From Planctomycetaceae bacterium (lineage in GTDB: Bacteria; Planctomycetota; Planctomycetia; Pirellulales; UBA7805), in NCBI GenBank assembly GCA_902630355.1, contig CACOUL010000002.1:59605-123604 (forward strand): a stretch of DNA of 64,000 nt. Reading direction: 5' to 3'. This document shows, piece after piece, positions 11,982 to 41,384 of this stretch. The translations under genes and the position numbers were made by a program. The first letter of the stretch is position 1. Every line of letters begins with the position of its first letter. A model generated the notes under the pieces. That model was not told the origin of the DNA and searched no databases. It saw nothing but the letters and a program-made list of their open reading frames with translations.

Positions 11982-12579
11982 GGTGTGCCTTGGGCATCCC
12001 GAAATCTTCGCTCATTACAATCATCTCTCTCCATGCGTCTCCGGTCTACTAGGCACTGACCCGTAACCGCATGGCATGGGTGAACGGTTCGTTTCAGCGT
12101 TTCTCAATTACCCGCCGTCCCACCGGTACCGGGCAACAAACCGACCGACCTGCTAGGAATAAGGGGCAAAAAGGACGGAAATTTACTAGGCCGCGTGTTA
12201 CGAGGGCGAATGCATGACGCCAGCACACCCAGCGTCGGTGCCCACCCTGCTCAGTGGCAAGAGGGGCAGGTCGTTGACACCAGTGAAACATCAAAGCCAC
12301 CACCCCCAAAAACCGGGCGAAAACGCGAAAACTAAGTGAAACACCCACTTTTCCAATGGTAACCACCACTCGATGGGTGTCAAATAATCGGTTCTCATCC
12401 ACGCAAGCATTCAGTGCGTGCAGTGCGTGCGTTGCGCAAAAAAGGTAAAACCGGTCCTAATTACGCTCGATGTTCACGATAAGTTCTGCCGATAACAACG
12501 ATCGTAACGAGTACGGCGAGTTCTAGGGGGGAATCGCCGGACCACGGGTGTACCGCAGGAAGGACATGGCATTCCCCCG

Positions 12580-14244
12580 ATGTGTAACTCTCTAATTCTA
12601 AATAAGTTAAAGGATCCGCGCGTCCACCGCTCTCGCGGTGAGGGACGGTCCAGCCGGGTGAGAGTCCCCGGAACCTTTGTCTGCCTTACCCTGCTGCTCG
12701 CATCTCTTGCCCCGTCGCTTGTAGAGGCCGGGATGCCGCACCGTCGTGTCGTGCAACCAAGAATTGAAGGCCCCGTGGTCCCGGCACCGAAAAATTGGGG
12801 GTATCGTCCCACACGTTGGATTCGCTGGGAAACCGACATCATCCATCCCTCGCTCGGCCCAATTCCTGCGGATGCGAAGAAGGAAAGCAAACAGGCCGAG
12901 GAATCCGGAGACGCGTCTGGCGAAGATCAGCCGGGTACTGCTCCAAAAGCGGACGATACAAAACAATCGAACGGTGATTCGCCGATCAGCGACTCAGTTT
13001 TGCCGCCGCTTCCGGGTGATGATTCCACCCTCCCGCCTCTGCCGAATCTCGATGAAGATTTACCACCCTTACCCGGGGAAGACTTCAACAAAAAGCCCTC
13101 CGGCTCCTCTCAAAAAACGGGGCCTGACACCGCGCCACCGCCGTCGCCACCGCAAGGGCCGCAGGGGCCTGCGTTCCGCGATCCGGACACCAGCTTCGCT
13201 CCACCGTCAACCACCGACAAACCGGGTGACAACGCCAGACCAGTGCCCTCACAGAAGCAAGGCGGCTCGATAAAGCCGGAAACAAAAAAACCGGCAGCGA
13301 CTCCGGGTCCGCCTGCCGGTCAGCCTGCCCCACCTGCGAGTGAGTCGCCGAAGAACAAGCCTGATGTCCCATTGCCTGAACCAAAAAAAGATGATGGGTC
13401 ATCCGGCGACACCCGTTGGGAGAAGCGGACTCGAGAGAAACCGGTACCAGCAGAGATCAAAAAAGAGACTCCGGATAAAAAGCCCGGAGAACCCTTTTAC
13501 GATCCTGATTCGATTTTTGATGAGCGAGCCGCGAGGATGCAGCACAATTCAAACCGGTGGCAAAAAGCGGGTACGGCACGAGAAGAACCGCAATCAACAC
13601 AGCAAATCGAGCGAACCGCACAACGGATGCCGGAGGACGATGGTATATTCAGTCCCATCACTCTCTCGGCGCCAGCCCACCACAGAACGGGCGGTAACAA
13701 TCAGAAGGCGGCAGAAGTGTTACAGCCAGCACAAGAGAAGAACTTCCCCGAGCAGGATTGGGCACGAGAGCACGGCAGTCGCAAATCCAATGCCAGCGGA
13801 TCGTGGAAGCCGGCAGGCCGAGGATCTGTCGCACCGCGGACGCCGCGGATCGATCACGCCGTGCGGCCTGCCAGCTTTGAGATCCCGATCACTCCCACAT
13901 CTAGCGCCGGTGCCAAACCGGTCGCGCAGAACGATCGGCCAGAGGCTGATCGCCCACCGGGTACGGCACCTGTAGCCGTAACCGCTGAGGGGCATCCCAC
14001 TGGACTGTTGCCACAAAGGGCTCCCACAGATTCTCACGCCGAGCTGCAGAAAAGCGAGGCAACGACGATCGTACCCAAGGCTCCTCTCGCAACCCAAAAC
14101 CCGAGGGTCGTTCGAAATCCGATGCGCGATCCCCCGGCCGGAGATACCGAAGACCGAGTCTCGGGGAAAAACCCTTTGCGAGCCCGTCGGCATCAAGAAA
14201 CTGCCGCGGATCTCGAGCACAAACGTTCCAATCCGCTCCGTTAG
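12580..14244 (+). CDS. Proline-rich, probably secreted, intrinsically disordered protein; function unknown
   Basis: 554-aa ORF with the signal-like VPGTFVCLTLLLASLAPSLVEA; an in-frame GTG at 12658 would give MRVPGTF.... It has a triple LPPLP motif (VLPPLPGDDSTLPPLPNLDEDLPPLPGEDF) and long P/K/E/G/S-rich stretches. The region is GC-rich and several frames are open, so the coding call is only moderate. Confidence 0.45.
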   Translation: MCNSLILNKLKDPRVHRSRGEGRSSRVRVPGTFVCLTLLLASLAPSLVEAGMPHRRVVQPRIEGPVVPAPKNWGYRPTRWIRWETDIIHPSLGPIPADAKKESKQAEESGDASGEDQPGTAPKADDTKQSNGDSPISDSVLPPLPGDDSTLPPLPNLDEDLPPLPGEDFNKKPSGSSQKTGPDTAPPPSPPQGPQGPAFRDPDTSFAPPSTTDKPGDNARPVPSQKQGGSIKPETKKPAATPGPPAGQPAPPASESPKNKPDVPLPEPKKDDGSSGDTRWEKRTREKPVPAEIKKETPDKKPGEPFYDPDSIFDERAARMQHNSNRWQKAGTAREEPQSTQQIERTAQRMPEDDGIFSPITLSAPAHHRTGGNNQKAAEVLQPAQEKNFPEQDWAREHGSRKSNASGSWKPAGRGSVAPRTPRIDHAVRPASFEIPITPTSSAGAKPVAQNDRPEADRPPGTAPVAVTAEGHPTGLLPQRAPTDSHAELQKSEATTIVPKAPLATQNPRVVRNPMRDPPAGDTEDRVSGKNPLRARRHQETAADLEHKRSNPLR

Positions 14245-14309
14245 CAGCAAGCGATGCAATACACACCGCCCCCTTCCCGTCGCTTGCGACGCCTGCTGTA
14301 CTGAGGTGC

Positions 14310-14804
14310 ATGTTCCTCTCTCCCGATGCACCTGAAGAAGAAGCGGCCCACGCGCAGTACATGCAGCTTGCCCTCCATGAGGCAGAGCAAGCTGCAAAAT
14401 CGGGGGAAGTCCCGGTCGGAGCGGTGATTGTTCGCCGTAGCCAGGTGATCGCCAGCGCGCACAACCAGCGCGAAACTCTCGCCGACCCGACGGCCCACGC
14501 GGAAATGATTGCCATCACGCAGGCTGCAGGCGCAATCGGAGATTGGCGGCTTACCGACTGCGTCCTCTTCGTCACACTCGAACCATGTCCCATGTGTGCC
14601 GGGGCCATCTTGCAGGCACGCATCCCCAAAGTTGTCTTTGGAGCACTCGATCCCAAGGCCGGTGCGGTCACTTCACTTTATCAACTGCTGGAAGATCGGC
14701 GATTGAATCACACGGTGAGCGTTACTGACGGAGTCCTTGGTGAAGCGTGCGGACAGATCCTCAGCGACTTTTTTGCAGCCCAGCGACAACTGGGAAAAAA
14801 ATAA
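14310..14804 (+). CDS. tadA: tRNA-specific adenosine deaminase TadA
   Basis: Shows the CDA zinc motifs HAEMIAI and PCPMCAGAI, the TadA-like VPVGAVIV, and a typical length of about 150-164 aa. Confidence 0.9.
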   Translation: MFLSPDAPEEEAAHAQYMQLALHEAEQAAKSGEVPVGAVIVRRSQVIASAHNQRETLADPTAHAEMIAITQAAGAIGDWRLTDCVLFVTLEPCPMCAGAILQARIPKVVFGALDPKAGAVTSLYQLLEDRRLNHTVSVTDGVLGEACGQILSDFFAAQRQLGKK

Positions 14805-14835
14805 ACCGCCGCCCACACAGGCTTACGGCGAGTGG

Positions 14836-15696
14836 CTACTGCGTCGCGTCGATCCCGTTGGCGGCACCCGCCGGGGTCATCATATTGCCGTACAACATCG
14901 ACATCCTGTCCAAATCTGCTTGGTCGACAAAAAAGAATTCGACACTCCCGTCGCAGTAGGCAACATTAAAGCCTTCCTGATGAAAACTACTCGGCCGACC
15001 CGTGGCCGAAGCATCGGAACCGGTCACATCGTTGAGCGTATTGGTTCCGCCCAGTTCGGCGACCAGCCCCTGACTCGTCTCGCCCGACGTATTCCAATTG
15101 GTGAGACTGGCACTCTCCGAGAGCAACATGGTCTGACGTTTCCCGTCCCGGATATCCTCCAGTCCGACCGAAGGAGCACCGGTTTGGCTTCGATCATGAA
15201 AAACGGCCGTCCAACGTTGATCCGTGGTATTTCCCGACGCGGTCGTCGGCTCTGATCCACCAGAATCTGCTTGTCCCGCGTTCACGGCATAACCGAGTTT
15301 CGCCTCGGTGCCCGTCTCTGCCGGATTACTGGGACAAATAAACATCTCAATTTGGTCTGCGGTGGTCGTGCCGGAACCCCATTCACGGTACCGCTGCTGC
15401 ATATCGAGATACGGCATAATCTGGACAGCCCACGGTTGCGCGGTCGCTCCGGAGCCGGACCACCACCCGGCAAATCGGCCTTTTTTGATCGCGTGATTCA
15501 GGTGGGCACCTGCGAGGTCCTTCATCTGTTTGGAACATTGGGTCTGACGGGCCTGCTCCTGGCCACTCATCACGGCGGGCAGCAGCAAGGCCACGAGCAT
15601 GCCGATGATGCCGATCACAACCAGAAGTTCCACGAGCGTAAAACCGACGTCCCGCTGGGGACATCGCCGAATGGGAGTCGCTTGCTTGTGCATCAT
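14836..15696 (-). CDS. DUF1559 / H-X9-DG prepilin-type N-terminal cleavage-methylation protein (pseudopilin-like)
   Basis: Prepilin site RDVG|FTLVELLVVIGIIGMLVALLLPAV and the C-terminal H-X9-DG motif HQEGFNVAYCDG. The 286-aa size is typical of the Planctomycetes DUF1559 expansion. Confidence 0.85.
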   Translation of the reverse strand: MMHKQATPIRRCPQRDVGFTLVELLVVIGIIGMLVALLLPAVMSGQEQARQTQCSKQMKDLAGAHLNHAIKKGRFAGWWSGSGATAQPWAVQIMPYLDMQQRYREWGSGTTTADQIEMFICPSNPAETGTEAKLGYAVNAGQADSGGSEPTTASGNTTDQRWTAVFHDRSQTGAPSVGLEDIRDGKRQTMLLSESASLTNWNTSGETSQGLVAELGGTNTLNDVTGSDASATGRPSSFHQEGFNVAYCDGSVEFFFVDQADLDRMSMLYGNMMTPAGAANGIDATQ

Positions 15697-15997
15697 ATGC
15701 CTCGACTTGCTCTGATTGGTTCCGCTGCCCTTTTGCTCCGTCGGATTTACAAGGCTTGGAGGTCACCCTGTAGTGCCATTGTGACAGTTTCCGGCAAATC
15801 ACGCCAGTCTTTGCCCGATATACCCCAAAAAAGGTTCGTTTTCTCCCCCGCGCGGAATGTTATACCGCGGGCAACCCTGCGGATAAATCTCTGCGGCGAC
15901 GGAATTGCTTGACCGGTTCGGCCCCCGATTGCTAGGCTAAGAAAGGTCGGTCCGCAGAGGGTGTGATTATCCTTTCTGCGAAAATCCCCAGGGCAGT

Positions 15998-16789
15998 TTG
16001 GACAGAGGCGTGTCGATGCAAACCGATACCCGCTCGCACCCCCACACACGGGGCCTACCCTCCGCTCGCACCCGCACCGGTTTCACGCTCGTGGAACTTC
16101 TGGTGGTGATGATGATCATCGCGATGCTTGCGTCGATGATCAGCTTCGCCATGTTTCGCTCGATGCAGGCGGCCCGCGAGGCGAAGACGCAAGCGCTGAT
16201 CTCCAAACTGCACAATGTCGTCTCTCGCCAGTGGGATACCTACGTCACCCGGCAGGTAGCGGAAGGTACGCCGGAAGAGCAATTGGCGGCAATTCGAGAA
16301 CTGATTCAATGGGAAATGCCCGATGCGGCGGGCGATTTGGTCGACGCGCCCGCATCGCTGATCAATCAAAATATTACGGGGACTGTCAACGGTGCATCGG
16401 GGTATGTCGATGCCCAATGCCTCTATCAGTTGGTCCTGCAAATTGCGGATGATGACCTCGATCGGATCAACTTTTTTTCTGACGATGAAGTGAAAGATCT
16501 CGACGGCAACGGCAGTCCGGATGTCTTTATCGACGGGTGGGGTGAGCCAATCAGCTTCATCCGCCGACCGACCGGTTTTCCCGCGACGCTCTCCGATCTG
16601 AACGATCCCGACAGCCCCGATCCATTTGATCTCACCGATTCGCCGGCAAACGGAGTTTATTTCCCCCTCATATTCTCCGGTGGTCCCGATAAGACGGGCG
16701 GACTCGCCGCGTCGAGCGGAACGCCCAATGCGGGAAACGCCCACCTCGATAACATCCACAATCATCGGATCGACGCGCGTTTGCGTTGA
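15998..16789 (+). CDS. Type II secretion GspG-like pseudopilin (prepilin-type N-terminal domain)
   Basis: Prepilin site RTG|FTLVELLVVMMIIAMLASMI, with the GspG-like elements DGWGEPISF and SGGPDKTGG. The start is uncertain: the track start at 15998 or MQTDTR at 16016. Confidence 0.75.
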   Translation: MDRGVSMQTDTRSHPHTRGLPSARTRTGFTLVELLVVMMIIAMLASMISFAMFRSMQAAREAKTQALISKLHNVVSRQWDTYVTRQVAEGTPEEQLAAIRELIQWEMPDAAGDLVDAPASLINQNITGTVNGASGYVDAQCLYQLVLQIADDDLDRINFFSDDEVKDLDGNGSPDVFIDGWGEPISFIRRPTGFPATLSDLNDPDSPDPFDLTDSPANGVYFPLIFSGGPDKTGGLAASSGTPNAGNAHLDNIHNHRIDARLR

Positions 16790-16922
16790 GCGCAGAATCG
16801 ACTGCTCCCGGCAATAAGTCCCCACTGGAAATTCGGGAATCGGGGGGAGCCGCGGCCTCTCCCGGCCGTTAGCTGATGGTAGAGGTGGCAACGCGAGCTA
16901 AAGGTCACGTGTTGCGATCGGG

Positions 16923-17456
16923 CTAGCGATCGCTCGTTCGCGGCACGCGTCCGATCACTTGCGTATCGTTGACCCGCCGGCGATGTCCCGTGGGCCGCGT
17001 GTTGTAAGAATGCCCTTTGAGCCGATTGGCACTGTAGCCACCGTGCGCGCTCCGTCGGACCGGTCCGCCGACACGAGGGTCTTCCAGGCCTCTACCACTG
17101 CCACCGGCACTCTGGCGACCTTGCGGAGATCCCTGCCGCGCCTGCCGCTCTTGCTCCAGTTCCTTTTGCTGCTGTTCGAGCTGGTACTGTTGTTCCTGCA
17201 GCTTGGCTCGATCGGCCGTAATGCCCGCTCGGGTTTCTTGCTCCTGCTTGACAAAGTTGTAACGCATGAAGGCAGGGCCGAGCAACGGATTCACCATATT
17301 GACGTAGGGACTCACCTTCGGGCGCGTGTAGAAGTCAGGCTGGCTAGGGTTGTACCGATCCTGCGCGTCTGCCGGGCCGTTGATTCCAAGCACCAGTAAA
17401 CCGAGACCACCCCAAAGAATAAAATCGCCCAGCCAACCACGTCGATGAGTACGCAT
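16923..17456 (-). CDS. Secreted hypothetical protein with a Gln/Glu-rich coiled-coil segment
   Basis: Signal-like N-terminus GWLGDFILWGGLGLLVLGINGPADA, the coiled-coil segment KLQEQQYQLEQQQKELEQERQARQ, and a basic Gly/Arg-rich tail. It lies 73 bp downstream of the wza-like gene on the same strand. Confidence 0.5.
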   Translation of the reverse strand: MRTHRRGWLGDFILWGGLGLLVLGINGPADAQDRYNPSQPDFYTRPKVSPYVNMVNPLLGPAFMRYNFVKQEQETRAGITADRAKLQEQQYQLEQQQKELEQERQARQGSPQGRQSAGGSGRGLEDPRVGGPVRRSAHGGYSANRLKGHSYNTRPTGHRRRVNDTQVIGRVPRTSDR

Positions 17457-17529
17457 CGAATTCCTCCGTTTAAATCGGAAACGCCCGTTCCGCTAGGTGA
17501 ATTGTACCTTCGCTTTCCCCTGAGGACAA

Positions 17530-18888
17530 TTAATTTCTACTCTTGGCCTCGACGGTTGCCGCAGCCGGTAGCGTAACACCTCGCCGCAGACGGTTTTCCG
17601 CCGCCACCTCAGCCGGTGTGAGTTCGCGGAATTCAACATCGAGCAATCCGTAGTTGACCATCAGATAACCGTTGTCCGCCCGGACCACCGCAGCGGACCG
17701 GTTGGCAAGCAGGTCTTGGGCAATCACACCGCGATACCACTGCATCTGACCGCGATAGCGGAAGTGATAGACTGGGATTCCCGAGGGACTCGTGGCAACC
17801 TGCCGGATGTCGGTTTTGAGGCGGCGATCACTGAAGAAGTTACCGAAGTTGTTGTTGCCACTGTCGCGGAACGAACCTCCGAGGTTACGTATCGTGGCCG
17901 TTGCCAGGAACATGGTTCCAGCAATCCGCTCGACCGGGGCAGTGACTCGTGCAATCGTGGCGTCCAGTCGGTTCAATTCGCTGGCGCGGATGTAGATGCG
18001 ATCACCCGGAAAAACCTGGTAGTTTGTCGCCGTGATCCCCTGCTTGCAGATTGCATCCCAATTGACCGGGAGCCGCTGCTCGTAGCCACCGTGATCCGGA
18101 CTCGGTCGGGCAATCCAGATATCTTTGGTCGCCTGGCCACCGAGGCCGCCGATTTCACTGATGGCATCCAAGACCGTTTCGCCACCATTGATCGGTAAGC
18201 GCACCACCTGATCACCCAATCCCGCACCGTCGGAAATGACGTAATAAAATTTACTGTTGTAGGCCGACACATCGACGATCACTTCGGGCGCTTCGAGATA
18301 CTCGTCGAGTTTCTTCTCGATCGCATCTTTGACCTGTTCGAGGGTCAGGCCGGCGACATAGACCTGCCCGTAGGACCCTAAATTGACCATCCCGTCCGGG
18401 GCCACCTGATGTTCTCCGGCAATCTGTTGGCTGCCGGCCGTCTCTAGCAGATTGACCGTGGTAACCGGATTGACCAGAAGTTCGAGCAGTTTGTCCTGAA
18501 TGGCCGTTTCGGCTTCGTCGATTGTCTTGCCTGATATCGTCACTTTTCCATATTGGCTGCCCAAATTGACGCGACCACTCGCATCGATTTGGTATTCCCC
18601 TGTGATCGGATAATCGGGAAGCACGTTCTCCGATTCGATCTGGACGATATCGAGCGGCTCGAGACGATAAGGCGCTTTGGGAATCACCCTCAACGCATCG
18701 ATCAGCAAAATGTCGGGCGGTTCGACCACATACAACGGAAGCGTTGTTTTAAACTCTTCGTTGGGAATGCGAGCCTCGGGTGGAATATGCTGTTCGAGTT
18801 TGAAATTGCGCGTACCGAGCGTATGGCAACCGGTCGCAAAAGCGACGAGAACAGAAAGAGCCAGCAGAAAGGCCGGTTTTGCTCGCAT
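17530..18888 (-). CDS. Outer-membrane polysaccharide export lipoprotein (Wza/OPX-like, SLBB repeats) fused to a C-terminal Peptidase-S74 intramolecular chaperone domain
   Basis: Lipobox LVAFATG|C and the Poly_export-like YRLEPLDIVQIES. SLBB-like repeats appear as GRVNLGSQYGKVTISGKTIDEAETAI and GMVNLGSYGQVYVAGLTLEQVKDAI. The C-terminal segment SDRRLKTDIRQVATSPSGIPVYHFRYRGQMQWYRGVIAQDLL...YLMVNYGLL is the S74 signature. Confidence 0.85.
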   Translation of the reverse strand: MRAKPAFLLALSVLVAFATGCHTLGTRNFKLEQHIPPEARIPNEEFKTTLPLYVVEPPDILLIDALRVIPKAPYRLEPLDIVQIESENVLPDYPITGEYQIDASGRVNLGSQYGKVTISGKTIDEAETAIQDKLLELLVNPVTTVNLLETAGSQQIAGEHQVAPDGMVNLGSYGQVYVAGLTLEQVKDAIEKKLDEYLEAPEVIVDVSAYNSKFYYVISDGAGLGDQVVRLPINGGETVLDAISEIGGLGGQATKDIWIARPSPDHGGYEQRLPVNWDAICKQGITATNYQVFPGDRIYIRASELNRLDATIARVTAPVERIAGTMFLATATIRNLGGSFRDSGNNNFGNFFSDRRLKTDIRQVATSPSGIPVYHFRYRGQMQWYRGVIAQDLLANRSAAVVRADNGYLMVNYGLLDVEFRELTPAEVAAENRLRRGVTLPAAATVEAKSRN

Positions 18889-19371
18889 GGGGGCTGCTCG
18901 GTTGAGTTCCAGTTAAGACAATCACTAGCGTGGCTAGCATTTGCCCAGCGCCGCCCCCCGGAGACGCTGATAATCCTCACAGCACCCCCTATCGTCATTA
19001 TCAGGATGATTCTTTGACGAAAAATAATTTTTGCGACTCCCATGCAAGTCTAGGGAAGTCGGGTGTTTTGGGGCCATTGCGCGCATTGCTGCCGTAAGGC
19101 TTTAACTCCATCTAACCCCTTGGCCGTGCGGGTTTACTGCATTGCCGCAGGGGAAGGCCCGATGAACGCGACGAACCCGCACTTTTGCAGAATTTCCCCG
19201 GCGTTTGCGGCTGTGGTAAGGTAGACCTGAGAAGGCGTTTTGGCGCATTTTGTGCCCGGTGGGCACCGAACGATCCAATCTGAACCCGAATACGTATATA
19301 CCCGCAGCAGGGCCTCCCGAACCGGCAAACGCGGAAGGCTGTTTGCTGGGGTCGATAGCACGGCTTGCACT

Positions 19372-20286
19372 ATGAACACTGCTTCCGAAAGCACACTTGG
19401 GCCAACCAAGCCAATCCCCACCGTCTCGCTTGCCATCTTGATCGGCTTGTTGGGGATTCTCTGCTATTCCTTTTACAACTCACTCTCGCGACTCTGGCTC
19501 GTCTTCTGGAATACCGATGAGTATTCACACGGTTACATCGTGCCGGTGATCGCGGCCGTACTCCTCTACATGCGGTGGAAACCAGAATATCTGGAGAGTC
19601 TCCGGAATATCGCACCCTCCGCAAAAATCTGGGGAATCCTTCTGCTCTCACTCGGGCTGGTATTGCGTTTGTTGGCCACCCGCATGGGCATGGAAACACC
19701 CGATATGATTGCCTTTCTTCCATGCCTGGCAGGCGTCGTTTTGATGGCCGGAGGCTGGACCCTTTTTCGCTGGGCCGGCCCGATCATTCTCTTTTCTGTA
19801 TTTATGTTTCCGCTTCCGCACCGCATTCAGCAGGCGATCCTCGTTCCCATGAAAGAGGTTGCCACGACGTGCAGTTTCTATCTTTTACAGATTATGAACT
19901 TCGATACCTCGAGGGAGGGCAATATTCTCTTCATTTCGGGAATTCCTATGGGGGTGGTCGACGCTTGCAGTGGCCTGCGGATGCTCACTGTCTTTCTTGC
20001 GCTTTGCGGAGCGGTTGCCATGACGATCAACAAACCGCTTTGGGAGCGGACTCTGATCTTTCTGAGTGCCATCCCGATCGCAATCGCGGTCAACGTACTG
20101 CGCATTACATCGACTGGCATCGCGTACTCGATTGCCGGTGAAGATAGCGACTGGGTGCACTATGTGTTCCACGACAATGCAGGGTTGATGATGATGCCGC
20201 TGGCCATGGTGATGCTCTATCTGGAAATCGCCCTGTTGGGCATGCTGTTTATTGACGAAGACCTTCCGGCAACAAGTAGCGAATGA
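19372..20286 (+). CDS. Exosortase (EpsH/Xrt family transpeptidase)
   Basis: Polytopic membrane protein with the family catalytic signature: Cys in VVDACSGLRML, Arg in AVNVLRITS and His in FHDNAGLMMM. The ATG at 19372 (MNTASES) is preferred over the track start at 19240. Confidence 0.85.
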   Translation: MNTASESTLGPTKPIPTVSLAILIGLLGILCYSFYNSLSRLWLVFWNTDEYSHGYIVPVIAAVLLYMRWKPEYLESLRNIAPSAKIWGILLLSLGLVLRLLATRMGMETPDMIAFLPCLAGVVLMAGGWTLFRWAGPIILFSVFMFPLPHRIQQAILVPMKEVATTCSFYLLQIMNFDTSREGNILFISGIPMGVVDACSGLRMLTVFLALCGAVAMTINKPLWERTLIFLSAIPIAIAVNVLRITSTGIAYSIAGEDSDWVHYVFHDNAGLMMMPLAMVMLYLEIALLGMLFIDEDLPATSSE

Positions 20287-20606: not shown

Positions 20607-22958
20607 ATGGCACCTCCAGAAGACGATCATTCGGGCGAAAGCCAAGAAGGACAACCGAACTCGAGCAAGGGTGAACTCGGTCCAGTTCGCGAGGATGCGA
20701 CCGGTACGGCACTGCAGACTGCGGAAATGCCGGGCGGTCCACTGGTCCCGTTGAGTACCCGGCCGAAGATTCTCACCGTGCCTCCGAATGTCACCGAAAT
20801 TTTGAATTCATTCCGTAGGCAATGGCGTCTGGCGGTCATTCTGGGGATTTCCTTCGCCATTCCCGTGGGATTGGCAACATGGTTTTTGGTGCCCATTCAA
20901 TACACCGCACAGTCGCTGATGCAGTCGAGAAGCAACACGCTTATTTTCGACGATTTACAGAATGCCGAAGAGAGTGGTTGGGAAGCGCAGGAACAACTGA
21001 TCCGCGGCTTCCAGGTTCTCAATACGGCGCTGAACGATGGCTTGATGGACCTTGAGTACATCAAGGAAGCTCAAAAAGATGGGATCGATCCGGTCGATTA
21101 TCTGGCGAAGACCCTGCTTATCACCGTACCGGATGATGAGAAAGAGCGTAAAGGATATGGTGGACAAATTCTCCGCATCGCGATGCAAGGGGATGATCCA
21201 CAGCAGCTGAAAAAGATTTTAGAGGCCGTTACCGATGCCTATCTCTCGCAAGTTGTCAATGAAGAGCGTCTGGAGTGGTTGAAGCAAAGAGACGAGTTGA
21301 AATCGCAATACGATCGCTCATCGGATATTTTGCGGATCAAACGTGAAGATTTACAGGTCTTGGCCAAGCAGGTCGGCACTTCCGACCCCGATACGGCAAG
21401 TGCGACTCAGCAACTGCTGATCGATCAGGTTCTTTATCTCCGTCGGCAGATCAGCGAAGCGCGGGAGCAAGTGGTCCAAAAAGACCGCGAGCTGAAAACC
21501 TACGAGCAGCAGGTCGGCTGGGTTGCTCACACAGGGAGCATCTTACCGGAAGATATCGAGGTAGAAATCGCACAGAATGAAGACCTGGCAGCGTATAACG
21601 AAAGGCTTGCCGAACTTGAGGAAGATCTGGAGACCTATAGGCAAATCTATCGGGATCCGAAAGCTGAGCCGATCCAGGCGCGCGAAAAGGTAATCGCCCA
21701 ATTGCAGGATGAACAGGCGGCTTTTGCCCAACAGCTGAGAAATGAGATCTTGGCATCCTTCCGTCGCGGCGAAAGGAAAAGCGATGTTGAATTGGAACAT
21801 GAACGACTCGCCGCAGAAGCGAATGAGTCGAAAGCGTATCTTGAAACATTGACGGCAGAGTACAAAGAATTGGCAGATGATGTCGAAGAATTGGCCAATT
21901 ATTCCGCTGAGCTTGAGACGAAGCGAGATGAACTCACCTTTCTTACCGAGGTCACCGGCGAGTTGGGTTACAAGCTGGAAAAACTCGAATTGGAACTCAA
22001 TGCGAATCAAGGGCGTGTGCGAAGAATTCCGGGCGGTATCCGCCAACCGAAAACGGGCGATACCAGCAAGCGAGACCAAATGACATTCGCTGCAACACTT
22101 GTGGCCCTGGCTCTGGGAATCGCTGTGCCGACGGGTCTCGACGTGATCAAAAGGAAGGTCTCAACGGTCGAACAAATGTCCGAGGGACTCGGGATCCGTG
22201 TCCTGGGCAATCTCCCGCTGCTCGATAAGCCCAAGCGAAAATGGGGTTTTCGAGCGCCCACTCCCGAAGCGATCGAGGAACTGCAGGTGGCGATGGAAGA
22301 GTCGATTGATGGACTCCGAGCCATGCTCTTACATCTCCCTGCGGCAAAGGATGTCCGCACCCTGATGGTCACTAGTGCGATTGAAAACGAAGGCAAGACA
22401 ACGCTCGCCTCCACGCTGGCAATGAGCATGGGACGGAGCGGTCGACGCACGCTGCTTATCGACGGAGATCTCCGACGACCATCCGCACATCGATTTTTGG
22501 AAATGCCGCTCGAGGAGGGCCTCGCCGAGGTATTGCGGGGTGACGTGGCGATCGAAAGGGCCATACGCCCCAGTCCGATGCCGGGTCTGCGGTTTCTCTC
22601 CGCCGGACACTGCGACCCCACGAGTCTGCAGGCGCTTACCAAAGATAATCTTGAAGAGGTTTTCGAGAAGGTAAGAGAAGAATTTGATTTTATTGTCGTC
22701 GACTCAGCACCCGTGCTTGCAGTCGTCGACGCCCTGCTTATCGGTAAACAGTGTGATGCGGCGATACTCAGCGTAACACGCGACAAGAGCCGCGTGGCGC
22801 CCATCTACGAAACCAGCGAAAGGTTGCGGGCGACGCGGATTCCCGTACTCGGTTGTATCTTTAACGGAAAGCAATCCAGCGTATTTGCACCCGATTACTA
22901 CGCGTATGGGTACAGTCCGGCAGCGGTTGCGACAGAGGACACCTCCGATGAAGCATAG
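20607..22958 (+). CDS. Polysaccharide co-polymerase / BY-tyrosine autokinase (Wzc/GumC/EpsG-like)
   Basis: Wzz-like N-terminal domain with a TM segment and a long coiled coil. The second TM segment (FAATLVALALGIAV) precedes a kinase domain with Walker A ENEGKTT, A-prime LLIDGDLRRP and Walker B DFIVVDSAPVL. The C-terminal Tyr cluster reads APDYYAYGYS. Confidence 0.9.
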   Translation: MAPPEDDHSGESQEGQPNSSKGELGPVREDATGTALQTAEMPGGPLVPLSTRPKILTVPPNVTEILNSFRRQWRLAVILGISFAIPVGLATWFLVPIQYTAQSLMQSRSNTLIFDDLQNAEESGWEAQEQLIRGFQVLNTALNDGLMDLEYIKEAQKDGIDPVDYLAKTLLITVPDDEKERKGYGGQILRIAMQGDDPQQLKKILEAVTDAYLSQVVNEERLEWLKQRDELKSQYDRSSDILRIKREDLQVLAKQVGTSDPDTASATQQLLIDQVLYLRRQISEAREQVVQKDRELKTYEQQVGWVAHTGSILPEDIEVEIAQNEDLAAYNERLAELEEDLETYRQIYRDPKAEPIQAREKVIAQLQDEQAAFAQQLRNEILASFRRGERKSDVELEHERLAAEANESKAYLETLTAEYKELADDVEELANYSAELETKRDELTFLTEVTGELGYKLEKLELELNANQGRVRRIPGGIRQPKTGDTSKRDQMTFAATLVALALGIAVPTGLDVIKRKVSTVEQMSEGLGIRVLGNLPLLDKPKRKWGFRAPTPEAIEELQVAMEESIDGLRAMLLHLPAAKDVRTLMVTSAIENEGKTTLASTLAMSMGRSGRRTLLIDGDLRRPSAHRFLEMPLEEGLAEVLRGDVAIERAIRPSPMPGLRFLSAGHCDPTSLQALTKDNLEEVFEKVREEFDFIVVDSAPVLAVVDALLIGKQCDAAILSVTRDKSRVAPIYETSERLRATRIPVLGCIFNGKQSSVFAPDYYAYGYSPAAVATEDTSDEA

Positions 22959-23055: not shown

Positions 23056-23760
23056 GTGTCTCGCTGGATACCACTACTGGTCGCAATTCCTTTGATAGGC
23101 TTGAGCACCTATCTCCAAGGATCGTGGACCGATCGCTGGTCTGATGAAAGCGATCTCCAAATGGCGAAGACCTCCAAGCGGTACGCCGACATTCCTCTCA
23201 CAATCGGTGACGGTTGGGTGGGTGAAGAGATGCCCTACTCCAAGAAAGAACTCGAGGCTGCTGGAGCACACGCACACCTGTCGCGCGTTTATCGCCATCG
23301 AAAAACGGGCGAGCGAATCACCGTATTCATGATCTGTGGATATGCGCGGGATGTTGCGGTTCATACGCCAAATTATTGTTATGTGGGTGCCGGGTTCGAG
23401 GTGGAGAATCCTCCAGTGACGTTTGCCGTCGAGATGGACGAAGGCGAGAACCCAATGACGTTTCAGACCACGACGTTTCTCAAGGAACGTCCTCTCGGCA
23501 CGATTCATCAGCGTATCCTTTGGGGCTGGACCGGAGGGGAACCGTGGAATGCACCCGACTACCCGCGTTGGAAGTATCCCGGCAACTCAACACTCAACAA
23601 AGTCTATCTCATCCACGACATTCCGCCCGGAATCGAACGCAAGCCGGACACCCTCACGCAGGAGCATCCGGCGGTCGAGTTCGGACGCGAATTTCTGCCC
23701 ATCGTTCGCGACGTACTCTATGCCCCGCAAGCTTCCAATAATAGCCTCAGCCAGGAATGA
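23056..23760 (+). CDS. Exosortase-associated EpsI family protein
   Basis: N-terminal anchor MSRWIPLLVAIPLIGL, the EpsI-type PLTIGDGWVGEEMP, and the conserved VHTPNYCYVGAGFE block. Confidence 0.8.
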   Translation: MSRWIPLLVAIPLIGLSTYLQGSWTDRWSDESDLQMAKTSKRYADIPLTIGDGWVGEEMPYSKKELEAAGAHAHLSRVYRHRKTGERITVFMICGYARDVAVHTPNYCYVGAGFEVENPPVTFAVEMDEGENPMTFQTTTFLKERPLGTIHQRILWGWTGGEPWNAPDYPRWKYPGNSTLNKVYLIHDIPPGIERKPDTLTQEHPAVEFGREFLPIVRDVLYAPQASNNSLSQE

Positions 23761-23839: not shown

Positions 23840-25750
23840 ATGTGGTCCGGCAAGGGGCAATTCTCGTTTGGACAGAGGGAGTGTTTCGTGCGCTCTAATC
23901 GCTTGCGTCGATCAGTTCTACGTCGCGTTCCACAGGGTTTCACGCTTGTGGAACTCATGGTGGTCATCGCAATCATTGCCATTCTGACCGCCCTGCTGAT
24001 CCCTGCGGTCTCCATGGTACGCAGCTCCTCCCGCCAGACAGAGTGCGCGTCGAACTTGCATCAAATCGGCATGGCAGTGATCAACGCAACCACGGCGGGA
24101 AAACGGCTGCAGCCGGGCAAATTAGTTCAGGCATCAGATCAAGAAAACCCGATCAATCTCGGCATGCCGCGCTTGCTTGAAGACCATATGGATAAAAATT
24201 ATTCGATCTTCAAGTGTCCCTCGGTCACCGGGGAAGAAGTCGGCTATGAGACAACGGTTCACTTTGGATTCAACGGTCGTCTGGGGCGGCTCACCAGCAA
24301 CGATGCGGGCAAAGTGATTGCGATGGACTACGGAAAGGAGATCATCGACTGGACCGATGACGCCGAGTGGGACAAGTACGACTCGGAATGGACCGGCAGT
24401 GGCATAGCGCCCCTCAGGCGTCATTTCGATGGCTGTAATGTGGTCTTCTTTGATGGACATGTGGAAAGGATGGATCCGGATACGATAAGGCACGGTAAAT
24501 CTCACGATACGGCCTACGAAAATGCAACCGAATACTGGGCTCCCGAACTCGATGAGAAACGTTATGTGCAACCGGTAAACGGGTCAGGAGGTGACGGCAA
24601 CTCCGAACCGGGCGGGGCCTGGGATGGTCCTCCGGTACCGATCCCCAACATCGTGGGGGCAAGCAGCAGTTCGGGCGGAGAAGCCGATACGGGCGGGCAG
24701 GGTTCCAAATACCACCCGGAGGTTGACCCCAATGATCCCGGGAGAAAATACACTGGTGACACCAACACGTACGGCGCGAGTGTGGGTCAACCGGAGCCTT
24801 GTGAGTTTCTTCTCGTGATCGACAACGAGGATCCGGGATTCTCGAAGACCACCAACAAACTCGCGAACAAAAATGACGACACGGCAATGAATGGTAGCCA
24901 TTTTCGCGCCTACGCAAAGTTTTTCACCAGTGGAGAAGCGCGCTGGAGTGCGGCCGATCTACGGGCGGGAACTTATAAGGTCAGTGCCTCGTGGGGCACG
25001 ACGGAGAAACCGCGATTTAATGCGGTGGCCTATCTGTTGACTTCAGACACGGAAACGCAGTCGATCACAATCAATCAGAATTTAGATTTTGAATGGACCG
25101 ATGACGAAGGACGTGGGTGGACCGATTTGGGTCAAGTGGTCGTTGGCGAGGGTGGCACCCTGGATGTGCAGATGCCCGCGGTGAACACAACAGTTGGACA
25201 TCGCGTATGTGCTGACGCCATGCGGTTCGAAATTATTGAATGTGCCGACAGTGGTGGAGGCGGGGGTGGCAACGATGCTCCCGCCGAGGAGGAGCCTGAG
25301 GAACCGGTGGATGAGTATGTCGCAACAATGGACAATGAGGACGCCGCGTTTTCGCGAACTTCTTCCGTCTTCAAGAAAAAGCTCGACGCGACGGCAATCA
25401 ACGGCCATCAATGGATGGCTTATGCCAAGAATTTTACTCACGGAGAAGCGCGGTGGAGCTTTACTGATGTCCCTGAAGGCAGCTACCGGGTCAGCGCCAC
25501 ATGGGGCACTACCGATAAGCCTCGCTACAACGCAGTCGCCTACAATCTCGTTTCGGATATCGATAGTCAAACAGGAACGATCAATCAAAATATCGCCTTC
25601 GAGTGGAACGGCGATGACGGAGTGGGTTGGACCGATGTGGGACAAGTGAACGTGGGTGCGGGAGGGACGCTGGATGTGGTGATTCCGCCGGTCAATTTCA
25701 GTAAATACCACCGCATCATGGCCGATGGCATCCGGATCGAAAAGCAGTAG
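23840..25750 (+). CDS. DUF1559/H-X9-DG pseudopilin-like protein with two tandem C-terminal Golvesin/Xly-like carbohydrate-binding modules
   Basis: Prepilin site PQG|[24 protein letters not shown] and H-X9-DG motif [16 protein letters not shown] linker leads into two ~145-aa homologous modules ending ...CADAMRFEI and ...[10 protein letters not shown]. Confidence 0.8.
24800..25747 (+). repeat. Intragenic tandem duplication of a ~145-aa module (24800..25243 and 25316..25747) separated by a Gly6/acidic linker
   Basis: The copies align residue by residue. [12 protein letters not shown]...[36 protein letters not shown]...[35 protein letters not shown] matches [12 protein letters not shown]...[36 protein letters not shown]...[35 protein letters not shown]. 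Confidence 0.85.
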
Positions 25751-25885
25751 GGCCGAGGCAACACAGATTGAGCCCACAGATCAGGTCAGGGCGGTCAGAG
25801 CGAAGGGGCGGAGAGAACGGGAACTGCGTGCCGTACGTTCATCGAGAGACGTGAACCGATTTCTCGCTGCGGACTCCGCAAAGAA

Positions 25886-28678: not shown

Positions 28679-28714
28679 GTGTTTCGACCTAGCAGTAAAT
28701 CTGTTCTCTCGTGC

Positions 28715-29881: not shown

Positions 29882-29904
29882 CCCCTTACGTCTCGTAATA
29901 AATT

Positions 29905-31569: not shown

Positions 31570-31593
31570 ACAGCGATGGTGTGTGTACTTGCG

Positions 31594-32700: not shown

Positions 32701-32709
32701 ATGCTTTTG

Positions 32710-34008: not shown

Positions 34009-34085
34009 TTAATTTGCTTCCTCATTCCGACCCGAAGGTTCTTCAAAAATGAAAAGTAAGTATCCTCTCCATCCCACTCTCTATC

Positions 34086-35282: not shown

Positions 35283-35304
35283 TTGACGACTGGTTGGCCC
35301 ACTT

Positions 35305-39395: not shown

Positions 39396-39494
39396 GATCT
39401 TGGTAAAAAGCTATAAGCTTCCCTTAGGACTCTTTTTCTTTCCCTGTTGCTCGGCAACGCACTCGATTAAAGAAATTCTCTCTAAACGCGCAGC

Positions 39495-41360: not shown

Positions 41361-41384
41361 AAAACTAGAGATTTCTTTCCTGGC

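What the first reader, a model, noticed from the sequence alone, without database searches (positions are those of the whole stretch)
17530..18888. Wza-type export lipoprotein fused to a phage tail-spike Peptidase-S74 intramolecular chaperone domain
Residues 1-330 form a standard OPX protein, with lipobox LVAFATG|C, a Poly_export motif and SLBB repeats. Residues 353-420 (nt 17629..17832) read SDRRLKTDIRQVATSPSGIPVYHFRYRGQMQWYRGVIAQDLLANRSAAVVRADNGYLMVNYGLLDVEF. This matches the self-cleaving intramolecular chaperone (Peptidase S74) known from endosialidase and tail-spike proteins. The matching landmarks are the S-D-(R/K)-x-x-K start (where the Ser is the cleavage nucleophile), Y.F.Y, G(V/F)IAQ(D/E) and the terminal Y..L. 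In phage proteins this domain nucleates trimer folding and then removes itself. Wza-like translocons are not trimers, so the domain may impose a different oligomeric state. Alternatively it may be released as a separate periplasmic fragment, or it may mark phage-derived domain capture by an EPS export gene.
Basis: partly seen in the sequence, partly recalled or inferred. Interest (0 to 1): 0.72.

Follow-up and report, generated by a model that had tools for sequence, protein, structure and literature searches.

The report
Polysaccharide export pore with self-cleaving tail
A marine-type planctomycete sugar-polymer export pore carries at its very end a small phage-family "self-cutting chaperone" domain. 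The domain is real and conserved, most likely cuts itself off, and has not been reported on this kind of protein in the papers I could search.

Summary
ORF 17530..18888 (-) encodes a 452-aa Wza-like OPX lipoprotein. It scores Poly_export 6.6e-24 and its model matches Wza by Foldseek.

Residues 353-~422 are a genuine Peptidase_S74/ICA domain:
- Pfam 29.4 bits against a cut-off of 22.
- PHROG 2.4e-17.
- Fold match to viral ICA models at about 1 Å.
- A subfamily profile reaches solved ICA structures.

The fusion is not an artefact. Eleven 90%-identity clusters and four GTDB Planctomycetota/Pirellulales MAGs carry it in the same exosortase/EPS locus. The tail is under purifying selection (dN/dS about 0.15).

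The S-D-x-R-x-K Ser/Lys dyad is invariant. The domain is joined exactly where tail-less relatives end (68 of 82 end in Phe). Cleavage at F352|S353 would therefore leave a native-like C-terminus.

- This is a short "mini-ICA" subtype without the long coiled coil.
- It sits closest to phage virion/DNA-ejection proteins and to another Pirellulales chromosomal protein, not to tail-spikes.
- SLBB "repeats" are not supported.

Best reading: a self-removing C-terminal pro-domain. Cleavage, oligomeric state and location are untested. This is a new variant of a known kind, of moderate interest.

The parts
17530..18888 (-). Whole gene: 452-aa OPX lipoprotein with a C-terminal mini-ICA (Peptidase S74) domain.
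   Evidence: The ORF is listed. Pfam finds Poly_export plus Peptidase_S74. The AF2 model has mean pLDDT 83.2. Foldseek matches Wza 2j58, 2w8h and 9r60 at about E 1e-9 to 1e-10.
18826..18888 (-). Signal peptide and lipobox (residues 1-21, ...AFATG|C21).
   Evidence: This is read directly from the sequence. G20 and C21 are at least 90% conserved among 94 homologues. AF2 predicts an N-terminal helix at residues 5-18.
17983..18825 (-). OPX body (residues 22-302): two Poly_export-type segments followed by one SLBB-like domain.
   Evidence: Poly_export scores 84.3 bits with two stretches; SLBB scores only 15.5 bits, below its cut-off. phmmer hits Wza 2j58 at 3e-12 over residues 160-304. dN/dS is 0.014-0.016.
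17878..17979 (-). Long C-terminal alpha-helix (residues 304-337) at the position of the Wza_C outer-membrane helix.
   Evidence: AF2 predicts helix H304-337, with pLDDT falling from 86 to 43 along it. Foldseek aligns 338 columns end to end with 2j58_A. No Pfam Wza_C hit appears at E<=1.
17833..17877 (-). Flexible Gly/Asn-rich linker (residues 338-352, GSFRDSGNNNFGNFF) ending in the P1 residue Phe352.
   Evidence: pLDDT is below 50 for residues 331-349. Tail-less relatives end 34-42 residues after the TAPxER anchor, and 68 of 82 end in Phe. Here there are 37 residues after the anchor and then Ser353.
17830..17835 (-). Predicted scissile bond Phe352|Ser353. Ser353 is the nucleophile and Lys358 (nt 17815..17817) is the general base.
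   Evidence: The region translates to FGNFF-SDRRLK. S, D, R and K of S-D-x-R-x-K are invariant in 8 OPX tails. S, D and K are invariant, and R is at least 90% conserved, in 34 subfamily members. Ser aligns with residue 1 of the released GA-1 chaperone fragment 3gud. The dyad role comes from MyRF S587/K592 and endoNF S911/K916 (PMC8326128).
17623..17832 (-). Mini-ICA / Peptidase_S74 core (residues 353-422).
   Evidence: Pfam scores 29.4 bits against a cut-off of 22. phrog_6121 hits at 2.4e-17. pLDDT is 82-94. BFVD fold matches to ICA proteins are. dN/dS is 0.14-0.17.
17530..17622 (-). Short helix (residues 425-438) and a disordered basic C-terminal end, plus the stop codon. This stretch is weakly constrained.
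   Evidence: AF2 predicts H425-438 and pLDDT below 50 for residues 442-452. dN/dS is 0.45-0.75. Many subfamily members end right after the IDV(E/D)F motif.
19240..20286 (+). Divergently transcribed exosortase (EpsH family). This is conserved context.
   Evidence: Pfam Exosortase_EpsH scores 1.1e-52. The same arrangement is seen in L001-L004.
20607..22958 (+). Wzc-like polysaccharide co-polymerase with a P-loop ATPase or kinase-like domain. This is conserved context.
   Evidence: Pfam finds AAA_31, CbiA and ParA. Synteny is conserved in L001-L004.
23056..23760 (+). EpsI-family (DUF3485) exosortase-associated protein. This is conserved context.
   Evidence: Pfam DUF3485 scores 1.9e-11. EpsI is called at the same position in L001-L004.
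16923..17456 (-). Small secreted coiled-coil protein immediately downstream. It is a conserved neighbour of this OPX family whether or not the OPX carries the tail.
   Evidence: It is 42% identical to the L001 neighbour (E 1e-27). It is 26% identical (E 1e-5) to the neighbour of the tail-less P0016. It has no Pfam or NCBIfam family.

Best explanation
**What the gene is.** It encodes the outer-membrane polysaccharide export (OPX, Wza-like) lipoprotein of a Pirellulales exosortase-linked Wzx/Wzy-type EPS locus.

**Architecture (shown).**
- After the periplasmic Poly_export/SLBB body comes a roughly 34-residue helix at the Wza_C position.
- A flexible Gly/Asn-rich linker ending in Phe-Phe follows.
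- A compact 'mini' intramolecular-chaperone auto-processing (Peptidase S74) domain closes the protein. It has an intact Ser353/Lys358 dyad.

**Most likely mechanism (inferred).**
- When several subunits come together, the mini-ICA domains associate. In every characterised ICA this association is a trimer.
- That association activates the Ser-Lys dyad, and the Phe352|Ser353 bond is cut.
- A roughly 11-kDa fragment (100 residues) is released.
- The mature OPX is left with the C-terminus ...GNNNFGNFF. This matches the length and the terminal Phe of tail-less relatives.
- The tail therefore acts as a self-removing pro-domain. It masks or holds the pore-forming C-terminus until subunits are assembled, and then leaves.

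**Shown versus inferred.** The architecture, family membership, conservation, junction position and genomic context are shown. Oligomerisation, cleavage, the compartment where cleavage happens and the assembly-control role are inferred.
For: **Domain identity**
- Pfam S74 scores above its gathering cut-off.
- phrog_6121 hits at 2.4e-17.
- BFVD fold matches to ICA proteins reach about 1 Å RMSD.
- The subfamily profile reaches solved ICA proteins: 6f45 at 2.4e-4, 3gud at 5e-3, 8jov at 5.5e-3 and MyRF 7dc3 at 9e-3. Ser aligns to residue 1 of the released 3gud fragment.

**Catalytic motif**
- S, D, R and K of S-D-x-R-x-K are invariant in the OPX tails, and G-V-I-A-Q is kept.
- S, D and K are invariant across 34 subfamily members.
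- These correspond to MyRF S587, R590, K592, I637 and Q639, whose mutation blocks or derails cleavage (PMC8326128).
- A bacterial S74 domain with an SDxxxK motif self-cleaves, and an S-to-A mutation blocks it (Bd3182, PMC10769870).

**Real and selected**
- Eleven clusters at 90% identity carry the tail.
- Four GTDB MAGs carry the gene.
- The locus is the same in L001-L004.
- dN/dS is 0.14-0.17 in the core against 0.45-0.75 in the last 30 residues.

**Junction**
- All 82 tail-less relatives stop 32-42 residues after the TAPxER anchor, and 68 of 82 end with Phe.
- The fusion has 37 residues after the anchor, ending in FF, and then Ser353.
- A disordered linker lies between the helix and the domain.

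**Context**
- The neighbours are exosortase, a Wzc-like protein, EpsI, Wzy_C, glycosyltransferases and two AsnB genes. No phage genes are present.
Against: - No experiment or multimer model exists. Cleavage and trimerisation are extrapolated from other family members.
- The domain lacks two features of characterised ICA domains. One is the long C-terminal coiled coil, which PMC8326128 calls the main driver of MyRF ICA trimerisation. The other is an upstream triple beta-helix. Only a 14-residue, poorly conserved helix follows the core.
- The tail model has no significant match to solved ICA chains by Foldseek.
- Wza-type OPX proteins are octamers (8 chains in 2j58). A three-fold module does not fit an eight-fold ring.
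- Phe at P1 with a Gly-rich lead-in (GxFF|SD) is common throughout the mini-ICA subfamily, including phage proteins. The 'native-like C-terminus' may therefore partly be a property of the module itself rather than of the OPX.
- There is no Pfam Wza_C hit, so the membrane-spanning role of helix 304-337, and hence the topology, is not established.
Confidence: 0.55

Rival explanations
1. The mini-ICA domain is a permanent, non-cleaving appendage. It stays attached and forms an oligomeric cap, gate or docking platform at the exit of the export channel, or on its periplasmic side. It might bind polymer, or tether the complex to a surface layer.
For: - The subtype lacks the coiled coil that drives trimer-dependent activation in MyRF (PMC8326128).
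- In phage relatives L017 and L018 the domain is internal and is followed by about 480 residues, so it is not always a disposable end piece.
- If helix 304-337 spans the outer membrane as Wza_C does, the tail would sit at the channel mouth.
Against: - The Ser, Asp, Arg and Lys of the processing motif are invariant in all OPX tails. Ser, Asp and Lys are invariant across 34 diverse subfamily members. Such conservation is hard to explain without catalysis.
- The junction falls exactly at the native C-terminus and follows a disordered linker.
- Every S74 domain tested so far self-cleaves (PMC8326128, PMC10769870).
Confidence: 0.2
2. Cleavage happens, but the point is the released roughly 11-kDa fragment. 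It would act as a separate periplasmic or extracellular factor that reports or regulates export-complex assembly, or that binds another envelope component. It would not act as a chaperone for the OPX.
For: - The core of the fragment is under purifying selection.
- A second Pirellulales protein, P0125, carries a 61-68% identical domain behind a similar Gly/Phe linker. The organisms would therefore make more than one such fragment.
Against: - The last 30 residues are poorly constrained.
- No partner gene is specific to tail-bearing loci. The small downstream gene also accompanies tail-less OPX genes.
- Close tail-less OPX relatives in a similar neighbourhood manage without the tail.
Confidence: 0.1
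3. The tail is a neutral or recently captured passenger, or an assembly or frameshift artefact, with no function in export.
For: - The fusion is confined to one narrow clade. All tail-bearing OPX proteins fall in a single 50%-identity cluster among the top 150 tail relatives.
- The same C-terminal junction has accepted other add-ons: the CWVAREVYG module in 24 of 120 homologues and a third kind of tail in 3 of 120.
Against: - The tail is in frame and conserved in 11 clusters from ENA, JGI and NCBI assemblies and in 4 GTDB genomes.
- pN is far below pS in the core (0.12-0.18 against 0.54-0.64). dN/dS is 0.14-0.17 against the close relatives L005-L007 and 0.24 against the more distant L001. Synonymous sites are near saturation.
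- Catalytic residues are invariant.
- The two OPX subclades have kept the tail through about 25% divergence of the body.
Confidence: 0.07
4. The ICA domain re-templates the pore. This OPX would assemble in multiples of three (for example 9 or 12 subunits) instead of the Wza octamer.
For: - Characterised ICA domains act only as trimers (PMC8326128).
- The eight-fold versus three-fold mismatch needs some resolution.
Against: - The OPX body and helix are very similar to those of tail-less relatives (56-63% identity), and there is no obvious change at the junction.
- A 15-20-residue flexible linker would allow transient three-fold contacts on any ring.
- There is no direct evidence.
Confidence: 0.08

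Closest known systems
Wza / Class-1 OPX proteins (E. coli Wza, PDB 2J58; classification of Saïdi et al. 2022, PMC9603273)
   Same: - It is a lipoprotein with a Poly_export domain and an SLBB-like fold.
- It has a long C-terminal helix at the Wza_C position.
- It is encoded with a Wzc-like co-polymerase, a Wzy-type polymerase and glycosyltransferases.
   Different: - It carries two Poly_export-type segments.
- It gives no sequence hit to Pfam Wza_C.
- It belongs to an exosortase-linked planctomycete locus.
- About 100 extra residues follow the helix and form an S74/ICA domain. The OPX architecture survey does not mention S74 at all (0 occurrences).
Intramolecular chaperone auto-processing (ICA / CIMCD, Peptidase S74) domains of phage endosialidase K1F, GA-1/phi29 gp12 and T5 pb1
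   Same: - It belongs to the same Pfam family.
- It has the S-D-x-x-x-K Ser/Lys dyad at the very start of the domain and the G-x-I-A-Q motif.
- It sits at the C-terminal end of the carrier protein.
   Different: - The classical domains are 130-160 residues with a long coiled coil. They follow a triple beta-helix fibre that they help to fold.
- This one is about 70 residues plus a short helix, and it follows an alpha-helix and a disordered linker on a non-fibre protein.
- No significant Foldseek match to solved ICA chains was found.
Mini-ICA domains of uncultured-phage 'virion structural / DNA ejection' proteins (phrog_6121, phrog_4287; IMG/VR loci L017-L096)
   Same: - These are the best-scoring relatives in phages. 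Identity is 36-50% over about 70-90 residues.
- They have the same short form ending in IDV(D/E)(F/M).
- They have the same Gly/Phe-rich lead-in, for example GFFGNLF|SDERLK.
   Different: - The carriers are coiled-coil, low-complexity virion proteins.
- The domain can be internal or duplicated, and it can be followed by large C-terminal parts that in some cases include an SLT lysozyme.
- None of them is an export protein.
Cellular S74 users: Bdellovibrio MAT fibres (Bd3182, PMC10769870) and eukaryotic MYRF (PMC8326128, PMC3742443)
   Same: - These are non-phage proteins that use the domain for oligomerisation-dependent self-cleavage at the SDxxxK serine.
- MYRF shows that the domain can serve as a release switch rather than as a fibre chaperone.
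   Different: - Both have a trimeric beta-helical stalk upstream and the full-length ICA.
- Neither is an outer-membrane pore.
P0125/P0271, a 286-aa hypothetical protein of Pirellulales MAGs
   Same: - It is the closest non-OPX domain, 61% identical to the window tail and 68% identical to the P0009 tail.
- It has the same Gly/Phe linker (GGFGGGF|SDERLK).
- It comes from the same bacterial order and sits in a chromosomal housekeeping context.
   Different: - The carrier is a signal-anchored, Gln/Lys-rich coiled-coil protein with no OPX domain.
- It is not in an EPS locus.

Membership tests
OPX (outer-membrane polysaccharide export, Wza-like) | Poly_export (PES) domain, Pfam PF02563. | tested here: met
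   The domain scores 84.3 bits against a cut-off of 28, E 6.6e-24, with two stretches. phmmer hits Wza 2j58 at 3e-12.
OPX (outer-membrane polysaccharide export, Wza-like) | One or more SLBB domains after the PES domain. | tested here: inconclusive
   SLBB scores 15.5 bits against a cut-off of 27. The model nevertheless superposes on Wza and on the class-3 OPX WzaB by Foldseek at E 1e-8 to 1e-10.
OPX (outer-membrane polysaccharide export, Wza-like) | N-terminal lipoprotein signal (about 78% of class-1 OPX proteins, PMC9603273). | tested here: met
   A hydrophobic leader is followed by ATG|C21, and G20 and C21 are at least 90% conserved. No dedicated lipoprotein predictor was available.
OPX Class 1 (Wza_C outer-membrane helix) | C-terminal amphipathic helix homologous to Wza_C (2J58 residues 326-359). 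| tested here: inconclusive
   AF2 predicts a 34-residue helix at 304-337. An insignificant HMMER segment pairs query residues 284-319 with Wza residues 306-341, which places the helix at the Wza_C position. Foldseek aligns 338 columns with 2j58_A. No Pfam Wza_C hit appears at E<=1.
OPX (outer-membrane polysaccharide export, Wza-like) | Encoded with a PCP/Wzc-type partner and polysaccharide assembly genes. | tested here: met
   A Wzc-like P-loop protein lies at 20607-22958. The window also holds Wzy_C, GT2, GT4 and UGDH genes. Synteny is conserved.
OPX (outer-membrane polysaccharide export, Wza-like) | Octameric ring. | not testable with these tools
   No multimer prediction was available.
XrtA/PEP-CTERM EPS export protein (TIGR03027 equivalog) | Score above the curated equivalog cut-off. 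| tested here: not met
   The score is 67.7 bits against a cut-off of 180. Exosortase and EpsI neighbours are present, so the protein is related but not an equivalog.
Peptidase S74 / ICA domain | Match to the family HMM above the gathering threshold. | tested here: met
   PF13884 scores 29.4 bits, or 32.4 for the tail alone, against a cut-off of 22. The more divergent P0009 and P0010 tails score 18.7 and 21.8 bits, just below the cut-off.
Peptidase S74 / ICA domain | Ser-Lys catalytic dyad in an S-D-x-x-x-K motif at the domain start. | tested here: met
   The motif reads S353-D-R-R-L-K358. S, D, R and K are invariant in 8 OPX tails, and S, D and K are invariant in 34 subfamily members. The motif aligns to the first residues of the released 3gud fragment.
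Peptidase S74 / ICA domain | Fold of solved ICA domains (3GW6, 3GUD, 4UW8, MyRF). | tested here: inconclusive
   Foldseek against the PDB gives nothing at E<=0.3. The solved domains are intertwined trimers, whereas the query is a monomer model. Against predicted viral ICA proteins there are 22 hits at E<=1e-3 with RMSD of about 1 Å.
Peptidase S74 / ICA domain | C-terminal trimeric alpha-helical coiled coil, the main trimerisation force in MyRF ICA (PMC8326128). | tested here: not met
   Only a 14-residue helix (425-438) follows the core. It is weakly constrained, with dN/dS of 0.45-0.75. Many subfamily members end right after the beta core.
Peptidase S74 / ICA domain | Placed after a trimeric beta-helical fibre that it helps to fold. 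| tested here: not met
   The upstream elements are an alpha-helix and a disordered Gly/Asn linker on a Wza-like body.
Peptidase S74 / ICA domain | Trimerisation-dependent autoproteolysis. | not testable with these tools
   This needs expression with S353A and K358A controls, or a multimer model.

The most novel reading that the evidence does not exclude
A phage-family intramolecular chaperone/protease has been recruited as an oligomerisation-gated, self-removing cap on an alpha-helical outer-membrane pore protein. It would hide the pore helix and its terminal Phe until subunits meet, and then cut itself off. This would be the first S74 domain controlling assembly of a non-fibre, non-trimeric membrane channel. 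Related mini-ICA domains sit on coiled-coil, caspase-domain and phage ejection proteins. Together these would make ICA a general 'cleave-on-assembly' switch in bacteria rather than a beta-helix chaperone.
Probability: 0.3. Interest if true: 0.75.

Novelty: new variant of a known kind. Interest (0 to 1): 0.55.

Why it matters
**For OPX biology.** How Wza-type helices are kept soluble in the periplasm and inserted into the outer membrane is poorly understood. A natural OPX with a built-in, self-cleaving C-terminal module gives a handle on that step, through the S353A mutant, a tail deletion, and tracking of the released fragment.

**For S74 biology.** The domain would be shown working outside trimeric beta-helical fibres and in a minimal roughly 70-residue form. 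This is relevant to how the same domain was co-opted in MYRF and in Bdellovibrio fibres.

**For planctomycete OPX proteins.** The same C-terminal junction carries at least three alternative add-ons. It therefore looks like a modular hot spot.

**Limits.** The fusion is confined to a narrow clade of uncultured Pirellulales, and nothing about its activity has been tested.

Tried and rejected
1. **Single-sequence phmmer of the tail against the PDB.** It returned only chance ERB1 hits. The 8-sequence profile gave 3gud at only E 1.4. The broader 34-sequence profile was needed to reach solved ICA proteins.
2. **Word-indexed homologue search with the tail alone.** It scored only 20 candidates and returned two fragments. 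This wasted one of three searches. The exhaustive profile search replaced it.
3. **Foldseek of the tail model against the PDB.** There was no ICA hit. I treat this as inconclusive because solved ICAs are intertwined trimers.
4. **Looking for other OPX-S74 fusions among the 150 best tail relatives.** An OPX HMM built from A2 matched only P0122, a fragment of this same family, and P0004 is the only OPX representative in the list. More distant fusions beyond the top 150 of 9451 hits cannot be excluded.
5. **Idea that the small downstream gene is a tail-specific partner.** Rejected, because a homologue also follows tail-less OPX genes.
6. **Idea that the alternative CWVAREVYG tail is a CFI-box-CTERM domain.** The match is only E 0.1, and only 2 of 23 members match. 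Not supported.
7. **Search for a second S74 gene in the window.** None was found.
8. **Promoter and terminator scan around the gene.** Nothing exceeded the shuffled expectation.
9. **Literature searches for OPX combined with S74 or intramolecular chaperone.** Nothing was found.
Full report
**1.

- The minus-strand ORF 17530..18888 encodes 452 residues.
- The quoted peptide and its nucleotide range are exact. The region window:17815-17847(-) reads FGNFFSDRRLK.
- Pfam finds Poly_export (84.3 bits, two stretches). It also finds Peptidase_S74 at residues 353-395, above its gathering cut-off (29.4 bits against 22). The tail alone scores 32.4 bits.
- SLBB is only a weak single hit (15.5 bits against 27).
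- NCBIfam places the body nearest to PEP-CTERM-type and Wza-type export proteins, but below the equivalog cut-offs.

**2. Anatomy**

An AlphaFold2 model built on 94 homologues has mean pLDDT 83.2. It shows these elements in order:
- a signal helix;
- a beta/alpha body;
- a continuous helix at residues 304-337;
- a disordered stretch (pLDDT below 50 for residues 331-349);
- a compact beta-rich domain at 353-~422 with pLDDT 82-94;
- a short helix at 425-438;
- a disordered end.

Two results place the helix relative to Wza.
- The whole model matches Wza structures (2j58, 2w8h, 9r60) and a class-3 OPX at Foldseek E 1e-8 to 1e-10. The 2j58_A alignment runs over 338 columns.
- A weak HMMER segment pairs query 284-319 with Wza 306-341. 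This places helix 304-337 where Wza_C lies (2J58 residues 326-359 in PMC9603273).

No Pfam Wza_C hit was obtained, so class-1 membership is likely but not established. In E. coli Wza the end of that helix is exposed on the cell surface (my recollection of the Wza structure paper, not checked here). If the same holds in this protein, the tail would emerge outside the cell unless it is removed before insertion.

**3. The tail is a true ICA/S74 domain, of a short subtype**

Evidence that it belongs to the family:
- Modelled alone, the tail has pLDDT 83.7.
- It matches predicted structures of viral proteins annotated 'intramolecular chaperone auto-processing domain'. E-values reach 2.5e-7, RMSD is 0.7-1.2 Å over 65-76 residues, and identity is 34-46%.
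- Against solved structures Foldseek finds nothing. I treat this as inconclusive, because solved ICA domains are intertwined trimers.
- By sequence, a 34-member subfamily profile reaches four solved S74 proteins: 6f45 at 2.4e-4, 3gud at 5e-3, 8jov at 5.5e-3 and MyRF 7dc3 at 9e-3. The Ser-Asp start aligns to residue 1 of the released GA-1 fragment 3gud.

Evidence on the catalytic residues:
- S, D, R and K of S-D-x-R-x-K are invariant in the OPX tails, and G-V-I-A-Q is kept.
- S, D and K are invariant across the wider subfamily.
- In MyRF the equivalent S587 and K592 form the catalytic dyad. R590, I637 and Q639 mutants mis-cleave, and cleavage occurs only in the trimer (PMC8326128).

Differences from the classical domain:
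- It is about 70 residues rather than 130-160.
- Only a 14-residue, weakly constrained helix replaces the long coiled coil. PMC8326128 calls that coiled coil the main trimerisation force in MyRF.
- No beta-helix precedes it.

Closest families in PHROGs:
- 'virion structural protein' (phrog_6121) at 2.4e-17;
- 'DNA ejection protein' (phrog_4287) at 1.2e-8;
- tail-fibre families at only 2.5e-4.

**4. Not an artefact, and under selection**

- Eleven 90%-identity clusters (P0001-P0011) from ENA, JGI and NCBI carry the tail in frame.
- Four GTDB species representatives hold the gene, all Planctomycetota or Pirellulales MAGs. One is 99% identical over the part that is present.
- The locus is conserved in L001-L004: a divergent exosortase, a Wzc-like gene, EpsI and a small downstream gene.
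- Nei-Gojobori estimates of dN/dS against L005-L007:

| Region | dN/dS |
|---|---|
| OPX body | 0.014-0.016 |
| S74 core | 0.14-0.17 |
| Last 30 residues | 0.45-0.75 |

- Synonymous sites are near saturation, so these ratios are rough. In the core, however, pN (0.12-0.18) is far below pS (0.54-0.64).

**5. The junction is informative**

Among the 120 best OPX homologues the C-termini fall into four groups:

| C-terminal type | Number of 120 |
|---|---|
| Tail-less | 82 |
| S74 tail | 11 |
| Unrelated ~75-residue module starting C-WVAREVYG | 24 |
| Third kind of tail | 3 |

- Tail-less proteins stop 32-42 residues after the conserved TAPxER anchor, with a Gly/Asn-rich segment. Sixty-eight of the 82 end in Phe.
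- The fusion has 37 residues after the anchor, ending ...FGNFF, and then Ser353.
- Cleavage at the canonical position would therefore regenerate a C-terminus of native length with a native-type terminal Phe.
- The CWVAREVYG module is attached at the same junction as the S74 tail.
- Caveat: Phe at P1 with a Gly-rich lead-in is also typical of the mini-ICA subfamily elsewhere, for example GFFGNLF|SDERLK in phage proteins. The last few residues may belong to the module rather than to the OPX.

**6. Where the domain came from**

- An exhaustive profile search finds 9451 relatives at E<=1e-3.
- Among the best 150 representatives, the only OPX is this family's own representative, P0004.
- Other carriers include:
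  - short basic or Gln-rich proteins;
  - proteins with two tandem copies;
  - 1300-1800-residue proteins, one of which (P0134) carries an SLT lysozyme;
  - a caspase-domain protein.
- At least 80 IMG/VR viral contigs carry relatives with 36-50% identity.
- The closest non-OPX relative is P0125/P0271, a 286-residue secreted coiled-coil protein of Pirellulales MAGs.
  - It has the same Gly/Phe linker and sits among housekeeping genes.
  - Its domain is 61% identical to the window tail and 68% identical to the P0009 tail. The two OPX tail subclades are only 62% identical to each other.
- So the phage link is real at the family level. The immediate donor or recipient is as likely a resident Pirellulales gene as a phage.

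**7. Context**

The window is a large EPS locus with no phage genes. It contains:
- exosortase EpsH, a Wzc-like protein and EpsI;
- a sulfotransferase, GT2 and GT4 glycosyltransferases, and UDP-glucose dehydrogenase;
- a heparinase II/III-like protein and two asparagine synthases;
- a FemAB-like acyltransferase and a Wzy_C polymerase.

**8. Mechanism and rivals**

- Best reading (confidence 0.55): the tail is a self-removing pro-domain. It associates when subunits meet, cuts F352|S353, and leaves a mature OPX with a native-type C-terminus.
- Whether cleavage precedes membrane insertion (periplasmic release) or follows it (surface shedding) is open.
- The eight-fold versus three-fold mismatch is unresolved. 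The 15-20-residue disordered linker would allow transient three-fold contacts.
- Four rival readings are scored in the Rival explanations section:
  - a permanent cap or gate (0.2);
  - a functional released fragment (0.1);
  - re-templated stoichiometry (0.08);
  - a neutral passenger (0.07).

**9. Novelty**

- In the searchable literature, S74 domains outside phages are described for Bdellovibrio MAT fibres, eCIS fibres and MYRF.
- The OPX architecture survey does not mention S74.
- No paper combined S74 with polysaccharide export.
- I therefore rate this as a new variant of known kinds, restricted to a narrow uncultured clade and untested experimentally. Interest is 0.55.

Noticed in passing
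Homologues P0049, P0060, P0076, P0089 and others (24 of the 120 best OPX relatives); not in the window.: A different, highly conserved module of about 75 residues starts with an invariant Cys (FGFNPNFG-x-CWVAREVYG...FRAWLL...HGE.FA.WI). It is attached at exactly the same C-terminal junction as the S74 tail. Like the S74 tail, it begins with a potential nucleophile. It has no Pfam family. Its resemblance to NCBIfam CFI-box-CTERM is only weak (E 0.1, 2 of 23 members).
   Followed up: partly
window 16923..17456 (-): A small secreted protein of 177 aa carries PKVSPY and RPTGH motifs and a Gln-rich coiled coil. It lies immediately downstream of the OPX gene. It is conserved next to both tail-bearing OPX genes (L001, 42% identity) and tail-less ones (L098, 26% identity, E 1e-5). 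It has no known family. It may be an unrecognised partner of planctomycete OPX proteins.
   Followed up: partly
P0125/P0271; loci L013-L016: A Pirellulales chromosomal gene encodes a signal-anchored Gln/Lys-rich coiled-coil protein. It ends in GGFGWGGFGGGF|SDERLK plus a mini-ICA domain that is 61-68% identical to the OPX tails. Its neighbours are housekeeping genes (PDZ protein, DJ-1/PfpI, glutamate synthase).
   Followed up: partly
L017 4143..6686 and L018 4089..6620 (IMG/VR contigs); P0130-P0134, P0164: The same short ICA subtype occurs in several other settings. It is internal in phage proteins of about 845 aa, between a coiled-coil N-part and a C-part of about 480 aa. It is tandemly duplicated in 1300-1800-aa proteins, one of which (P0134) carries an SLT lysozyme. 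It also sits at the end of a caspase-domain (Peptidase_C14) protein. PHROGs annotates the family as virion structural or DNA-ejection proteins.
   Followed up: partly
window 12001..18000: G+C is 0.58-0.59 in this stretch against 0.49-0.55 on either side. The stretch includes the OPX gene, the pilin-like genes and the low-complexity ORF. The cause was not examined.
   Followed up: no
window 12580..14244 (+): A 554-aa ORF is extremely rich in Pro, Lys, Glu, Ser and Gly, with a possible signal sequence. It matches no Pfam or NCBIfam family. A family-less gene of 480 aa occupies the equivalent position in L001.
   Followed up: no
window 3148..7542 (-) and 7641..11981 (-): Two adjacent giant ORFs of 1464 and 1446 aa lie here. 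The second is a multi-TPR protein. A TPR protein of about 1467 aa sits at the same relative position in L001. The first was not analysed.
   Followed up: no
window 27878..42776 (-): The EPS cluster includes a sulfotransferase, a heparinase II/III-like protein, two asparagine synthase paralogues, UDP-glucose dehydrogenase, a FemAB-like acyltransferase and a Wzy_C polymerase. This combination suggests a sulfated, uronic-acid-containing polymer.
   Followed up: no
window 14836..16789 and 23840..27835: Several prepilin-type N-methylation-motif proteins lie around the export genes. One has a DUF1559 domain, and one (23840..25750) has two Golvesin_C stretches. The same pilin-like neighbours recur beside tail-less OPX genes.
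   Followed up: no
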